Assembly (NCBI RefSeq): GCF_056746865.1
Contig: NZ_CM163382.1
Reading direction: 5' to 3' (one strand)
DNA: 64,000 nucleotides
The position numbers and the translations under genes were made by a program. The notes under the pieces were generated by a model. It was not told the origin of the DNA and searched no databases. It worked only from the letters and a program-made list of their open reading frames with translations. Shown here one piece after another: positions 43,378 to 48,412 of this stretch; positions within the stretch are counted from its first letter, which is position 1; each line of letters opens with the position of its first letter.

Positions 43378-46300
43378 ATGGCAAACTTTTTTATTCGACG
43401 ACCGATATTTGCATGGGTGCTGGCCATTATTCTGATGATGGCGGGCGCACTGGCGATCCTACAATTGCCCGTCGCCCAATACCCAACCATTGCACCGCCT
43501 GCGGTTTCTGTTTCAGCAAACTATCCGGGCGCTGATGCGCAGACCGTGCAGGATACGGTGACGCAGGTTATCGAACAGAATATGAACGGTATCGATAACC
43601 TGATGTATATGTCCTCCACCAGCGATTCCGCCGGTAGCGTGACAATTACCCTTACCTTCCAGTCCGGGACCGATCCTGATATCGCGCAAGTGCAGGTGCA
43701 GAACAAACTCCAGCTCGCCACGCCGTTGCTGCCGCAGGAAGTACAGCAGCAGGGGATCAGTGTTGAAAAGTCCAGTAGCAGCTATTTGATGGTGGCGGGC
43801 TTTGTCTCTGATAACCCAGACACCACACAGGACGATATCTCGGACTATGTGGCCTCTAACGTTAAAGATACGCTTAGCCGTCTGAATGGCGTCGGTGACG
43901 TACAGCTTTTCGGCGCACAGTATGCGATGCGTATCTGGTTGGACGCCGATCTGCTAAACAAATATAAACTGACGCCTGTTGATGTGATTAACCAGTTGAA
44001 GGTACAGAACGATCAGATCGCTGCCGGACAGTTGGGCGGAACGCCAGCGTTACCAGGGCAACAGTTGAACGCCTCGATTATTGCTCAGACGCGGTTAAAA
44101 AATCCGGAAGAATTCGGCAAAGTGACCTTGCGCGTAAACAGTGACGGCTCGGTGGTACGCCTGAAAGATGTCGCACGGGTTGAACTTGGCGGTGAAAACT
44201 ATAACGTTATCGCTCGCATCAACGGTAAACCGGCGGCGGGCCTGGGGATTAAGCTGGCAACCGGCGCGAATGCTCTCGATACCGCGAAAGCCATTAAGGC
44301 AAAACTGGCGGAATTACAGCCATTCTTCCCGCAGGGAATGAAGGTTCTCTACCCTTATGACACCACGCCATTCGTCCAGCTTTCTATTCACGAAGTGGTA
44401 AAAACGCTGTTCGAAGCTATTATGCTGGTGTTCCTGGTGATGTATCTGTTCTTGCAGAATATGCGAGCAACGCTGATCCCCACCATTGCGGTACCCGTGG
44501 TGTTGTTAGGGACGTTTGCCATCCTCGCCGCTTTTGGTTACTCCATCAACACACTAACGATGTTCGGGATGGTGCTTGCCATCGGGCTGCTCGTCGATGA
44601 TGCGATAGTGGTGGTGGAGAACGTCGAGCGCGTGATGATGGAGGATAAGCTCCCGCCAAAAGAAGCGACGGAAAAATCAATGTCGCAAATCCAGGGCGCA
44701 CTGGTGGGTATCGCAATGGTGCTGTCAGCGGTATTTATTCCGATGGCATTCTTCGGCGGTTCTACTGGGGCAATTTATCGCCAGTTCTCTATCACCATCG
44801 TTTCGGCAATGGCGCTTTCTGTTCTGGTGGCATTGATTCTTACCCCAGCGTTATGTGCAACACTGCTCAAACCCGTCTCTGCTGAGCATCACGAAAATAA
44901 GGGCGGTTTCTTCGGCTGGTTTAATACCACCTTCGATCATAGCGTTAACCACTACACCAACAGCGTCGGCAAAATACTCGGTTCCACAGGACGATATTTA
45001 CTGATCTATGCACTAATTGTTGCTGGAATGGTGGTGTTGTTTTTACGTCTTCCGTCTTCCTTCTTACCTGAAGAGGATCAGGGTGTCTTTCTGACTATGA
45101 TTCAGTTACCCGCTGGCGCGACGCAAGAGCGAACGCAAAAAGTGTTGGATCAAGTGACGGATTACTATCTGAAGAACGAGAAAGCGAACGTAGAAAGTGT
45201 CTTTACGGTTAACGGCTTTAGCTTCAGCGGCCAGGCACAAAACGCCGGTATGGCTTTCGTCAGTCTGAAACCGTGGGAAGAGCGTAGTGGTGACGAAAAC
45301 AGTGCGGAAGCGGTAATCCATCGTGCCAAAATGGAATTGGGCAAGATCCGCGACGGTTTTGTCATTCCATTCAATATGCCAGCCATTGTTGAACTGGGCA
45401 CGGCAACGGGTTTCGACTTTGAGTTAATTGATCAGGCTGGGCTGGGTCATGATGCCCTGACCCAGGCCCGTAACCAGTTGCTTGGCATGGCGGCGCAACA
45501 TCCTGCCAGCTTAGTCAGCGTGCGTCCTAATGGTCTGGAAGACACCGCGCAGTTTAAACTGGAAGTTGACCAGGAAAAGGCGCAGGCATTAGGTGTTTCA
45601 CTTTCTGACATCAATCAGACCATTTCAACGGCGTTAGGTGGGACTTACGTTAACGACTTCATTGACCGTGGTCGCGTGAAAAAGGTGTATGTTCAGGCGG
45701 ATGCCAAATTCCGTATGCTGCCAGAAGATGTCGATAAACTTTATGTCCGCAGCGCCAACGGCGAAATGGTGCCATTCTCGGCCTTTACCACTGCACATTG
45801 GGTGTATGGCTCTCCGCGACTGGAGCGCTACAACGGTCTGCCGTCAATGGAGATTCAGGGGGAAGCCGCGCCAGGAACCAGTTCCGGCGATGCCATGGCG
45901 TTGATGGAAAACCTTGCATCACAATTACCAGCTGGCATTGGTTATGACTGGACGGGTATGTCATATCAGGAACGCTTATCGGGAAACCAGGCTCCCGCTC
46001 TGGTAGCAATTTCCTTTGTGGTTGTTTTCCTGTGCCTTGCTGCACTCTATGAAAGCTGGTCAATTCCTGTCTCGGTTATGTTGGTCGTGCCGTTAGGGAT
46101 TGTCGGCGTGCTACTGGCGGCGACACTCTTTAATCAAAAAAATGACGTCTACTTTATGGTGGGCTTGCTAACGACAATTGGCTTGTCGGCTAAAAACGCT
46201 ATTTTGATTGTTGAGTTCGCTAAAGATCTCATGGAGAAAGAGGGTAAAGGTGTTGTTGAAGCGACACTAATGGCAGTACGTATGCGTCTGCGTCCTATCC

Positions 46301-46482
46301 TGATGACCTCTCTCGCCTTTATTCTCGGCGTATTACCGCTAGCTATCAGTAACGGTGCCGGCAGTGGCGCGCAGAACGCAGTGGGTATCGGAGTAATGGG
46401 CGGGATGGTTTCTGCAACGTTGCTGGCAATCTTCTTCGTGCCGGTGTTCTTTGTGGTGATCCGCCGTTGCTTTAAAGGATAA
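43378..46482 (+). CDS. acrF: AcrF, RND multidrug efflux transporter
   Basis: 1034-aa [44 protein letters not shown]... Confidence 0.95.
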
Positions 46483-46492
46483 ATCAGAAACA

Positions 46493-46525
46493 TAAAGGCA
46501 CTTTCGGGTGCCTTTATTATTTTCA
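46493..46525 (+). terminator. Intrinsic terminator after acrF
   Basis: AAAGGCACTTTCGGGTGCCTTTATTATTTT. Confidence 0.7.
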
Positions 46526-46734
46526 GTGAAACCCATAAAAATTAATAAGATATTCTTCTTCTCACTCTTTAAAAACTTTCTATAGTTCCCGCTCCCTTCA
46601 CTATTTTTACAATTCACATAATTTGTCATTATTCATTCCGCAAGATTTATAACCTCCGGTGATAAAATGGCATTCAGCTCGTTAATAAGAGAGTTAACTT
46701 ATTAAGCGTTAGCGTTTATTACTGAGGTAACACC

Positions 46735-46956
46735 ATGAAAAGATTAATTCCTGTGGCATTGCTCACCGCATTGCTGGCGGGCTGTGCTCACGATTCGCCC
46801 TGCGTTCCGGTTTATGACGATCAGGGTCGACTGGTTCACACTAATACCTGTATGAAAGGCACGACTCAGGATAACTGGGAAACGGCTGGGGCTATTGCTG
46901 GCGGGGCAGCAGCTGTTGCTGGCCTGACGATGGGGATCATCGCTCTGTCGAAATAA
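46735..46956 (+). CDS. yhdV: YhdV, small lipoprotein
   Basis: 73-aa ORF MKRLIPVALLTALLAGCAHDSP... with lipobox and glycine-zipper tail. Confidence 0.85.
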   Translation: MKRLIPVALLTALLAGCAHDSPCVPVYDDQGRLVHTNTCMKGTTQDNWETAGAIAGGAAAVAGLTMGIIALSK

Positions 46957-47386
46957 CTGCACAGGGCGCGGAGTACCGCACTCTGTTTAACGATACAGTA
47001 TCTCACCATAAGATAAAATATTGCTATATTCTGCTGGCTAATTCCCTGCTGATTTAGCATGTTATATCGCGTTATTTCGCTGCTTTCGAAATAACGCATC
47101 AATTTAATTTTCACACTTCCCACCAGAATTATACTCACGCTAACAATCATTATTCTGCTTAGTAAAAAACGCGTAAATATTTTGCGCCAAAATGTGGCGC
47201 ATGTTTCATTTTCGCACCATTGCGGGGCGCTGTTTTTATTATTTCCTGTCTACACTCAGCTTATTGCGACGCGAAATCGTGCGCAAAAGCTGGCACTACT
47301 TTTGCTTATAAGAGGATGGCCACAGACAGGTAAAAGACGTTTCCCAAACGTCCTATAACGATAATTTTCGCCTCACAGGAAGCATT

Positions 47387-48412
47387 ATGAAAAAGATGAT
47401 GATAGCCACACTGGCTGCCGCCAGCGTGCTGCTTGCCGTTGCAAATCAGGCGCATGCTGGCGCGACGCTTGATGCCGTTCAGAAAAAAGGTTTTGTGCAA
47501 TGCGGGATCAGTGATGGATTACCTGGGTTCTCTTATGCCGATGCTGACGGTAAGTTTTCAGGTATTGATGTAGATGTTTGTCGTGGTGTTGCGGCAGCTG
47601 TATTTGGTGACGACACGAAAGTGAAATATACCCCGCTCACTGCAAAAGAACGCTTCACGGCTTTACAGTCAGGGGAGGTGGATTTGCTCTCCCGTAATAC
47701 GACCTGGACTTCATCTCGCGATGCCGGGATGGGAATGGCATTTACTGGCGTCACTTATTACGACGGCATTGGCTTCCTGACGCACGATAAAGCGGGGCTA
47801 AAAAGCGCGAAAGAACTGGATGGCGCTACTGTCTGTATTCAGGCGGGTACTGATACCGAACTCAATGTTGCCGATTACTTCAAGGCAAACAATATGAAGT
47901 ACACACCAGTGACTTTCGATCGCTCTGACGAATCAGCGAAGGCACTGGAATCTGGTCGCTGTGATACGCTGGCCTCGGATCAATCACAACTGTATGCCCT
48001 GCGCATCAAATTAAGCAACCCGGCTGAATGGATTGTCTTACCGGAAGTTATCTCCAAAGAACCGCTTGGGCCGGTAGTTCGTCGTGGCGATGATGAATGG
48101 TTCTCGATTGTACGCTGGACGCTTTTCGCCATGCTGAATGCTGAAGAGATGGGCATCAATTCCCAGAACGTCGATGAAAAAGCGGCTAATCCAGCAACGC
48201 CTGATATGGCACATTTGCTGGGTAAAGAAGGCGATTACGGCAAGGATCTGAAGTTGGATAATAAATGGGCCTATAACATCATCAAACAGGTGGGTAACTA
48301 CTCGGAAATTTTTGAGCGTAACGTAGGTTCAGAAAGCCCGCTGAAAATTAAACGTGGGCAAAATAATCTCTGGAATAACGGCGGTATTCAGTACGCGCCG
48401 CCCGTGCGTTAA
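47387..48412 (+). CDS. yhdW: YhdW, polar amino-acid ABC transporter periplasmic binding protein
   Basis: 341-aa ORF with signal peptide MKKMMIATLAAASVLLAVANQAHA. Confidence 0.9.
   Translation: MKKMMIATLAAASVLLAVANQAHAGATLDAVQKKGFVQCGISDGLPGFSYADADGKFSGIDVDVCRGVAAAVFGDDTKVKYTPLTAKERFTALQSGEVDLLSRNTTWTSSRDAGMGMAFTGVTYYDGIGFLTHDKAGLKSAKELDGATVCIQAGTDTELNVADYFKANNMKYTPVTFDRSDESAKALESGRCDTLASDQSQLYALRIKLSNPAEWIVLPEVISKEPLGPVVRRGDDEWFSIVRWTLFAMLNAEEMGINSQNVDEKAANPATPDMAHLLGKEGDYGKDLKLDNKWAYNIIKQVGNYSEIFERNVGSESPLKIKRGQNNLWNNGGIQYAPPVR

What the first reader, a model, noticed from the sequence alone, without database searches (positions are those of the whole stretch)
47069..47097. Perfect 11-bp palindrome with a 7-nt loop in the yhdV-yhdW intergenic region
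GCGTTATTTCG-CTGCTTT-CGAAATAACGC is a perfect inverted repeat in the 430-bp AT-rich spacer upstream of the yhdWXYZ amino-acid ABC transporter, with a second short palindrome (GCGCCAAAATGTGGCGC, about 47183-47199) nearby. It has no trailing T-run, so it is more likely a dimeric regulator binding site or an RNA structure than a terminator. The regulation of yhdWXYZ is poorly characterised as far as I know.
Basis: seen in the sequence. Interest (0 to 1): 0.2.

Follow-up and report, generated by a model that had tools for sequence, protein, structure and literature searches.

The report
Lineage-specific palindrome upstream of yhdW
The perfect 11-bp inverted repeat is really there, but it is an Escherichia-only, fast-changing stretch with no sign of being a regulator site or a terminator, and the real, already published control region of yhdWXYZ lies about 100-230 bp downstream of it.

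Summary
The palindrome GCGTTATTTCG-CTGCTTT-CGAAATAACGC is at 47069-47097 exactly as described. The window is E. coli: acrF, yhdV, then yhdWXYZ.

It is single-copy and absent from about 70 other Enterobacteriaceae species that keep the yhdV-yhdW gene order. Its geometry differs between Escherichia species: 7-nt spacer in E. coli, 6-nt in two sister species, decayed in a third. Within E. coli it is as polymorphic as its flanks, and all three SNPs sit in the left arm without compensating changes. The left arm is the second copy of a 10-nt tandem duplication.

It is not the yhdV terminator. That is a family-wide, covarying GC hairpin at 46962-46986. It matches no tested operator: NagC/Mlc half-sites are near-perfect but 2 bp too far apart, and ZraR, NtrC and CRP do not fit. 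Rfam found nothing.

yhdWXYZ regulation is not obscure. A sigma54 promoter (47290-47306) and NtrC binding are published.

Most likely this is a neutral, duplication-made quasi-palindrome. A minor RNA-hairpin role is not excluded. Low interest.

The parts
47069..47079 (.). Left arm of the palindrome (GCGTTATTTCG). It is also the second unit of a 10-nt tandem duplication.
   Evidence: All three E. coli polymorphisms found in the palindrome are here (G47069A, C47070T, G47079A) and none is compensated in the right arm.
47080..47086 (.). 7-nt spacer or loop (CTGCTTT).
   Evidence: It is replaced by a 6-nt AACCTT or AACCAT in two sister Escherichia species (L003, L004).
47087..47097 (.). Right arm (CGAAATAACGC).
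   Evidence: TCGAAATAAC is invariant in the four other Escherichia sequences aligned and in the 11 E. coli sequences sampled. An ATAACGCA-like stretch is also present in Citrobacter youngae, which has no palindrome.
47061..47080 (+). Tandem direct repeat GTTATATCGC|GTTATTTCGC (two 10-nt units, 9/10 identical). This is the event that created the present left arm.
   Evidence: Read directly. E. coli is 11 nt longer here than L003 and L004, which carry a single copy.
46962..46986 (+). The actual yhdV intrinsic terminator hairpin (CAGGGCGCGG-AGTA-CCGCACTCTG, then TTTAAC). Context only, not part of the palindrome.
   Evidence: Folds at -15.1 kcal/mol. A perfect 7-14-bp G+C-rich stem of differing sequence, flanked by A- and T-runs, sits 2-54 nt after the yhdV stop in nearly all of about 70 species. 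Compensatory changes are seen within Escherichia.
47183..47201 (.). It is the distal NtrC-box-like element of the yhdW upstream activating region, centred about -126 from the sigma54 start.
   Evidence: TTTTGC.C....TGTGGC is conserved in 24 genera. It matches 10 of 14 specified positions of the NtrC box TGCACCAnnnTGGTGCA (consensus from PMC8743547). As a palindrome it is 19 bp, 2 bp wider than the box.
47213..47229 (.). Proximal NtrC-box-like element CGCACCATTGCGGGGCG with canonical 17-bp spacing, centred about -96.
   Evidence: GCACCA....GGGGC is conserved across genera, and most genera read TGCACCA. Consensus. NtrC ChIP-seq peak at yhdWXYZ (PMC4066584).
47290..47306 (+). Published sigma54 promoter of yhdW, CTGGCACTACTTTTGCT. 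The inferred transcription start is about 47317.
   Evidence: The same 17-mer is listed for yhdW, 70 nt upstream, in sigma54 ChIP-seq (PMC4591121). It is present with 0-4 mismatches at -92 to -116 in nearly all 75 related loci.
47108..47135 (+). Sigma70-like consensus match TTTTCA-16-TATACT, immediately downstream of the palindrome. It is unverified.
   Evidence: Consensus scan, 9 of 12 positions. The ATATTCAC block is partly conserved in other genera. No transcription-start data could be obtained.

Best explanation
The 29-bp palindrome is an Escherichia-lineage quasi-palindrome in the unconstrained upstream half of the yhdV-yhdW spacer. It is not a dedicated regulatory element.

Inferred history: an older 8-9-bp inverted repeat (TTATTTCG / CGAAATAA) existed in the Escherichia ancestor. 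In the E. coli lineage a 10-nt tandem duplication (GTTATNTCGC twice) placed a new copy next to the loop. That copy happened to lengthen the complementarity to 11 bp.

The palindrome lies outside both functional modules of the spacer. These are the yhdV terminator directly after the stop codon and the conserved block of NtrC-type boxes, sigma54 promoter and 5' UTR that drives yhdWXYZ.

If yhdV transcripts read through their terminator, the sequence would fold into a -13.9 kcal/mol hairpin. That would be a passive consequence, not a selected function.

Shown: position, uniqueness, lineage restriction, variable geometry, neutral-like polymorphism, and failure of the operator and terminator tests. 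Inferred: the duplication history and the absence of function.
For: 1. Lineage restriction. The best match to the 29-mer in about 70 non-Escherichia Enterobacteriaceae loci has 11-15 mismatches at unrelated positions, whereas the sigma54 promoter is found at a constant distance in nearly all. No hairpin of 9 bp or more occurs at the equivalent place in any other genus, whereas the yhdV terminator hairpin is nearly universal.

2. Variable geometry within Escherichia. E. coli has 11-bp arms and a 7-nt spacer. L003 has TTATTTCG-AACCTT-CGAAATAA. L004 has the same with an uncompensated G>A. In L005 three of the 11 left-arm positions no longer pair, and the fold is no better than shuffles (z = -1.3). 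All three species differ from E. coli by about 7-8% in yhdW.

3. Polymorphism. In 11 diverse E. coli sequences the palindrome has 3 variable sites in 29 nt (10.3 per 100). The flanks have 14.3 and 9.5 per 100, the NtrC/sigma54 block 6.7 and the 5' UTR 2.6. All three changes are in the left arm and none is compensated. In the evenly spaced sample of 30 listed hits out of 5,355 genomes, 22 match all 31 bases; 6 more match perfectly only from the third query base onward, and the one sequence of that class I fetched (L084) carries G47069A.

4. Duplication. Units 47061-47070 and 47071-47080 are 9/10 identical, and the sister species lack 11 nt exactly here.

5. It is single-copy: median one place per genome.

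6. There is no Rfam match, no terminator call, and no 3' end in the supplementary tables held for Adams et al. 2021.

7. Chance expectation is 0.12 per 64-kb window, so one such repeat is not a strong anomaly.
Against: - The 8-bp core arms are intact in both E. coli and L003 despite an indel and loop turnover between them. L003 independently shows a 10-bp perfect repeat (TTATTTCGAA-CC-TTCGAAATAA). Stems kept while loops change is what selection for a hairpin would give. Template-switch 'perfection' of quasi-palindromes, known from established E. coli mutagenesis work, gives the same pattern.
- The right arm TCGAAATAAC is the longest invariant run in the variable part of the Escherichia alignment.
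- Both half-sites score as near-perfect NagC/Mlc half-sites.
- The polymorphism sample is small: 11 sequences, plus coarse BLAST bands for 5,355.
- No transcript map or protein-binding data with base-pair resolution could be consulted for this spot.
Confidence: 0.55

Rival explanations
1. Functional RNA hairpin in the yhdV 3' region. Transcripts that pass the first terminator would fold the 11-bp stem, which would act as a back-up weak terminator or a 3'-exonuclease block stabilising yhdV mRNA.
For: - The hairpin is stable: -13.9 kcal/mol, z = -3.8 against shuffles, and it is kept in the 181-nt context fold.
- It lies 113 nt after the yhdV stop on the sense strand and is followed by a moderately U-rich tail, AUCAAUUUAAUUUUC.
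- The stem core is kept with a different loop in L003.
- C47070T gives a U-G wobble on the + strand only.
- In the window strain the primary terminator carries a stem mismatch and a shorter T-run than in K-12.
Against: - It fails the terminator criteria, with fewer than 5 T in 8 after the stem.
- No second hairpin exists at this place in about 70 other species that keep yhdV and its terminator.
- G47069A and G47079A give uncompensated A-C mismatches; the G47069A-type match class makes up 6 of the 30 evenly sampled E. coli hits.
- The hairpin is decayed in L005.
- There is no 3' end at 3,418,500-3,419,099 in the held tables of Adams et al. 2021.
- There is no Rfam match.
Confidence: 0.2
2. Operator for a dimeric transcription factor. 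The most concrete version is a NagC/Mlc-like (ROK-family) or unknown regulator recognising TTATTTCG...CGAAATAA and controlling a sigma70-type promoter just downstream (47108-47135) or modulating yhdW.
For: - It is a perfect dyad.
- When the two halves of a matrix built from 10 published NagC operators are scored with a free spacer, 47071-47095 at spacer 7 gives 23.8 bits, the best value in the whole 64-kb window at any spacer (sites from PMC3098098).
- The palindrome centre is about 59 bp upstream of the start implied by a sigma70-like match.
- In other genera a CRP-like TGTGA-N6-TCACA occupies roughly the same distance upstream of the NtrC-type boxes.
Against: - With the real 23-bp NagC geometry the best score is 6.4, against 16.8-24.5 for true operators.
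- The only invariant NagC/Mlc positions, TT/AA at +/-5,6 (PMC4288165), read TC/GA here.
- Half-site spacing changes between Escherichia species (7, 6, then decayed). A dimeric protein would not tolerate that.
- E. coli SNPs break the dyad on one side only.
- The palindrome is absent in Citrobacter and all other genera.
- It occurs once per genome.
- No regulator gene is adjacent apart from acrS, further upstream. The lack of resemblance to the AcrR/AcrS operator is from my own knowledge and was not tested.
Confidence: 0.12
3. Far-upstream enhancer site for a sigma54 activator (NtrC, or ZraR, which has been reported to regulate yhdWXYZ) acting on the yhdW promoter about 234 bp downstream.
For: - Enhancer-binding proteins act at a distance and bind dyads.
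- yhdWXYZ is reported as ZraSR-regulated (bioRxiv 10.64898/2026.05.04.722672, citing Rome et al. 2018) and as NtrC-bound.
Against: - There is no resemblance to the NtrC box TGCACCAnnnTGGTGCA.
- There is no resemblance to the ZraR repeats GAGTAAAAATGACTC in the zraP-zraS spacer.
- The published NtrC, sigma54 and RpoN-SELEX peaks map to about 47297-47383, not to 47083.
- ZraR ChIP-exo and genomic SELEX found no yhdW target.
- The palindrome is not conserved, whereas the two proximal boxes are.
Confidence: 0.03

Closest known systems
Quasi-palindromes in bacterial intergenic DNA, shaped by slippage or tandem duplication and by template-switch mutation (described for E. coli; cited from established knowledge, not tested here)
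   Same: It is a short AT-rich inverted repeat in an unconstrained spacer. It is adjacent to a 10-nt tandem duplication. Its arm length and spacer are lineage-specific. Perfect arms occur in two lineages with different geometry.
   Different: The mutational history is inferred from four Escherichia sequences only. No direct evidence distinguishes template switching from simple duplication plus chance.
Rho-independent (intrinsic) terminators, such as the yhdV terminator 83 nt upstream and the acrF terminator at 46492-46517
   Same: It has a stem-loop of comparable stability (-13.9 against -15.1 kcal/mol) on the sense strand downstream of a gene.
   Different: Only 4 of the 11 pairs are G-C. There is no T-run directly after the stem. 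There is no conservation or covariation across genera, whereas the true terminator has both.
NagC/Mlc (ROK-family) 23-bp operators
   Same: The half-site sequences TTATTTCG / CGAAATAA are near-consensus, as in the glmU-distal operator GTTTATTCATTGATCGAAATAAG.
   Different: The half-sites are 2 bp further apart than in every known operator. The invariant TT/AA at +/-5,6 is not met. The canonical matrix scores 6.4 against at least 16.8 for true operators.
NtrC-dependent sigma54 promoters of the nitrogen-scavenging regulon (glnAp2, glnHp2, argT, and the published yhdWp)
   Same: This is what the spacer really contains downstream of the palindrome: two NtrC-box-like dyads at about -126 and -96 and a consensus -24/-12 element.
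   Different: The 11-bp palindrome is not part of that architecture. It lies at -234, is not conserved, and has an unrelated sequence.

Membership tests
Intrinsic (Rho-independent) terminator | G+C-rich stem followed directly by a run of T/U | tested here: not met
   The scan requires at least 5 T in 8 nt starting 0-2 nt after the stem. The palindrome is not reported, while four other sites in 46480-47500 are. The tail is ATCAATTTAATTTTC and the stem has 4 G-C pairs out of 11.
Intrinsic (Rho-independent) terminator | Hairpin kept at the same position after the gene in related genomes, with compensatory changes | tested here: not met
   Only Escherichia has it. About 70 other species have only the hairpin directly after the yhdV stop. 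E. coli variants are uncompensated.
Intrinsic (Rho-independent) terminator | Mapped RNA 3' end at the end of the hairpin | tested here: inconclusive
   There is no entry for yhdV, or for coordinates 3,418,500-3,419,099, in the supplementary text held for Adams et al. 2021. The files may be truncated and yhdV may be poorly expressed.
NagC/Mlc operator | 23-bp quasi-palindrome with invariant TT at -6,-5 and AA at +5,+6 from the centre (PMC4288165) | tested here: not met
   Relative to the centre at 47083, positions -6,-5 read TC and +5,+6 read GA.
NagC/Mlc operator | Score comparable to known operators with a matrix built from them | tested here: not met
   The best local score is 6.4 bits, against 16.8-24.5 for the 10 training operators. 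The high score of 23.8 appears only if the spacer is widened by 2 bp.
NtrC box / sigma54 enhancer site | 17-bp TGCACCAnnnTGGTGCA-like dyad, conserved, 80-150 bp upstream of a -24/-12 promoter | tested here: not met
   The main palindrome has no sequence similarity, lies at -234 and is not conserved. By contrast 47213-47229 and 47183-47199 match 10 of 14 specified positions each and are conserved across genera.
ZraR binding site | Similarity to the GAGTAAAAATGACTC repeats of the zraP-zraS spacer | tested here: not met
   The zraP-zraS spacer was fetched and its 20-nt inverted repeat identified. It shares nothing with GCGTTATTTCG.
CRP site | TGTGA-N6-TCACA | tested here: not met
   Such sites occur in other genera at a similar distance from the NtrC-type boxes. 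In E. coli only a TCACA (47111-47115) remains, with 0 of 5 matches in the left half, and it lies outside the palindrome.
Dispersed palindromic repeats (REP/BIME, ERIC and similar) | Many copies per genome | tested here: not met
   The 31-mer and the 47-mer each hit one place per genome (median 1, highest 2) in 5,355 E. coli genomes.
Curated structured RNA (Rfam 15) | Match to a covariance model | tested here: not met
   The only overlapping hit is CRISPR-DR22 at 14.7 bits (gathering score 50), E = 5.5, which is noise from the dyad symmetry.

The most novel reading that the evidence does not exclude
The palindrome could be an Escherichia-specific operator for an uncharacterised dimeric regulator. 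One candidate is a ROK-type protein that reads NagC-like half-sites TTATTTCG/CGAAATAA at a spacing 2 bp wider than NagC or Mlc. It would link yhdV or yhdWXYZ expression to an amino-sugar or other signal through a sigma70-type promoter just downstream, replacing the CRP-like site that other genera carry at a similar position.
Probability: 0.05. Interest if true: 0.35.

Novelty: not a real feature. Interest (0 to 1): 0.08.

Why it matters
It matters little. If the palindrome is neutral, its main value is as a cautionary example: a perfect 11-bp dyad in an AT-rich spacer can arise from a small tandem duplication and carry no function.

The useful outcome is a clean map of the spacer:
- yhdV terminator, 46962-46986
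- non-conserved filler containing the palindrome
- conserved NtrC-type boxes, 47183-47229
- an unexplained invariant block, 47240-47257
- the published sigma54 promoter, 47290-47306
- the 5' UTR

Anyone dissecting yhdWXYZ regulation should focus on 47180-47386 and can probably ignore the palindrome. YhdWXYZ has recently been tied to antibiotic homeostasis and gut colonisation (bioRxiv 10.64898/2026.05.04.722672).

Tried and rejected
- **Terminator for yhdV.** Rejected: the scan is negative and the real terminator was identified upstream with family-wide covariation.
- **NagC/Mlc operator**, a lead recalled from memory. Tested against 10 published operators and the published invariant positions. 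The half-sites fit but the spacing and the TT/AA rule fail.
- **ZraR site**, followed because a 2026 preprint cites ZraSR control of yhdWXYZ. The zraP-zraS repeats are unrelated, and ZraR ChIP-exo and SELEX list no yhdW target. The original paper (Rome et al. 2018) is not held.
- **NtrC box.** No similarity for the main palindrome.
- **AtoC.** The paper only lists yhdW as a RegulonDB sigma54 promoter.
- **CRP.** Present in other genera, not in E. coli.
- **Repeated element.** It is single-copy.
- **Rfam.** Nothing found.
- **Small RNA ending at the hairpin.** No promoter-like site upstream passes the scan, and there is no 3' end in the held tables.
- **Other motifs compared by eye from memory.** ArcA, OmpR, GlpR, RbsR, Zur, PrpR, Fis, IHF, the H-NS nucleation motif, Xer/dif and hix recombination sites. 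None fits in both sequence and spacing. These comparisons were not formally tested.
- **Dead ends.** One literature search was too broad. Conway et al. 2014 has no supplement held. RNAalifold on the 5' UTR alignment recovered nothing because of indels.

Full report
**Observation**

The window is E. coli. The 430-bp spacer is 100% identical to strain 118UI and is present in 5,376 of 5,426 complete E. coli genomes. The genes are acrF (43378-46482), yhdV (46735-46956) and yhdW (47387-48412), followed by yhdXYZ. Window position + 3,371,655 gives the K-12 NC_000913.3 coordinate.

The palindrome GCGTTATTTCG-CTGCTTT-CGAAATAACGC is at 47069-47097 with 11/11 complementarity. The second palindrome is at 47184-47200, or 47183-47201 with the outer pair.

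Markov simulations expect 0.12 such perfect repeats per 64 kb (P = 0.09), and 0.0017 in the spacer alone. All other perfect 11-nt repeats with short loops in the window look like terminators. This one does not.

**What surrounds it**

Directly after the yhdV stop there is a G+C-rich hairpin (46962-46986, -15.1 kcal/mol).

In about 70 Enterobacteriaceae species recovered with YhdW as query, nearly every yhdV-yhdW spacer starts with a perfect 7-14-bp stem of the type AAAGCGCGG...CCGCGCTTT. The sequences differ, and the stems are flanked by A- and T-runs. Compensatory changes are visible even within Escherichia. That hairpin is the yhdV terminator.

Downstream, a multi-genus alignment shows strong conservation from about 47179 to the ATG. 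The conserved elements are:
- two NtrC-box-like dyads, 47183-47199/47201 and 47213-47229;
- an invariant CCTGTCTACACTC block;
- the sigma54 element CTGGCACTACTTTTGCT (47290-47306);
- the 5' UTR.

The sigma54 element is the exact 17-mer published for yhdW from sigma54 ChIP-seq (PMC4591121). NtrC ChIP-seq (PMC4066584) and RpoN genomic SELEX (PMC8743547) peaks map to the same 100 bp. yhdWp has been in the RegulonDB sigma54 list since at least 2011 and has been used as a nitrogen-responsive promoter (PMC7045595). Lrp binding and ZraSR dependence are also reported. The statement that regulation is poorly characterised therefore does not hold.

**The palindrome itself**

It lies in the least conserved part of the spacer.

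- *Outside Escherichia.* The best 29-mer matches have 11-15 mismatches at scattered positions. No hairpin of 9 bp or more sits at the equivalent place. Citrobacter keeps homologous flanks (TTAGCATTTT ... ATAACGCACAT) but has no dyad.
- *Within Escherichia.* Three other species are about 7-8% divergent from E. coli in yhdW. L003 has TTATTTCG-AACCTT-CGAAATAA, which can also be read as 10-bp arms with a 2-nt spacer. L004 has the same with an uncompensated G>A. In L005 three of 11 arm positions no longer pair, and the fold is no better than shuffles.
- *Origin of the left arm.* E. coli is 11 nt longer at exactly the left arm. Positions 47061-47080 are a 10-nt tandem duplication, GTTATATCGC|GTTATTTCGC. 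The present left arm is therefore the second copy. The duplication junction supplies the extra GC that extends an older 9-bp repeat to 11 bp. This history is inferred.
- *Within E. coli.* In the evenly spaced sample of 30 listed hits out of 5,355 genomes, 22 match the whole 31-mer. Six more match perfectly only from the third query base; the one fetched (L084) carries G47069A. Others carry C47070T or G47079A.
- *Polymorphism.* In 11 diverse sequences the palindrome has 10.3 variable sites per 100 nt. Its flanks have 14.3 and 9.5, the NtrC/sigma54 block 6.7 and the 5' UTR 2.6. All changes are in the left arm and none is compensated.
- *Copy number.* It is single-copy.

**Tests of specific identities**

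- *Terminator.* It fails the scan, there is no cross-genus hairpin, and there is no 3' end in the held Adams et al. tables.
- *Structured RNA.* Nothing in Rfam.
- *NagC/Mlc.* The half-sites are striking. With a free spacer, the two halves of a matrix built from 10 published operators give 23.8 bits at spacer 7, the best in the window. With the real 23-bp geometry the score is 6.4, against 16.8-24.5 for true operators. The only invariant operator positions, TT/AA at +/-5,6 (PMC4288165), are not met. The half-sites are 2 bp too far apart in E. coli and 1 bp too far apart in L003.
- *ZraR.* The zraP-zraS repeats (GAGTAAAAATGACTC) are unrelated, and two genome-wide ZraR studies list no yhdW site.
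- *NtrC box.* No similarity.
- *CRP.* Present in other genera only.

**Interpretation**

A dimeric operator predicts fixed half-site spacing, symmetric constraint and conservation at least among close genera. None of these is seen.

A functional hairpin tolerates loop changes, and the retained 8-bp core in E. coli and L003 is compatible with it. It should, however, show compensation and some presence beyond one genus, and it has neither.

The simplest account is a neutral, duplication-generated quasi-palindrome in filler DNA between two functional modules (confidence 0.55). A minor RNA-hairpin role in yhdV read-through transcripts comes next (0.2). An unknown operator is a minority possibility (0.12).

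**Verdict**

Interest is low.

Noticed in passing
window 47240-47257: TTTCCTGTCTACACTCAG contains a block (CCTGTCTACACTC) that is almost invariant across about 24 genera. It lies between the NtrC-type boxes and the sigma54 promoter of yhdW, centred about -68. It does not match the IHF consensus by eye, and I could not assign a factor to it.
   Followed up: partly
window 47183-47201: The conserved 'second palindrome' TGCGCCA-N5-TGGCGCA is 19 bp, 2 bp wider than the 17-bp NtrC box TGCACCAnnnTGGTGCA. In the 17-bp register it matches only 10 of 14 positions. The proximal box (47213-47229) has canonical spacing. Whether NtrC or another sigma54 activator (ZraR has been proposed for this operon) reads the distal dyad is open.
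   Followed up: partly
window 47336-47352: There is a 5' UTR stem-loop GACGTTT-CCC-AAACGTC about 20 nt after the inferred sigma54 start. Other genera have AGGCGTT..AACGCCT, AAGCGTT..AACGCTT or GACGTTC..GAACGTC at the same place, which are compensatory changes. RNAalifold on a gappy alignment did not recover it.
   Followed up: partly
L029, L039, L046, L067, L074, L081 and others, about 75 nt upstream of the distal NtrC-type box: Many non-Escherichia genera (Kosakonia, Pseudenterobacter, Lelliottia, Dryocola, Buttiauxella, Atlantibacter and others) carry a good CRP-like TGTGA-N6-TCACA, followed about 25 nt later by a conserved TATATTCAC block. This suggests a second, CRP-dependent sigma70 promoter for yhdW that Escherichia and Citrobacter have lost or altered.
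   Followed up: partly
L093 (E. coli PSS-15, NZ_AP027709.1): An IS1 element abuts the spacer so that only the last 115 bp before yhdW remain. The palindrome and both NtrC-type boxes are missing from this genome, and the sigma54 core promoter is left without its enhancer.
   Followed up: no
window 47387-48412 versus K-12 (L001 1543-2567): yhdW is intact (341 aa) in this strain and in most E. coli genomes, but it is annotated as a pseudogene in K-12 MG1655. Much of the published regulation work was done in the strain that lacks the binding protein.
   Followed up: no
window 46962-46990: The window strain's yhdV terminator carries a stem mismatch (A46980, where the other 10 sampled E. coli have G) and a shorter T-run (TCTGTTTAAC against TCTTTTTAAC in K-12). 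Read-through into the spacer may therefore be higher in this lineage.
   Followed up: no
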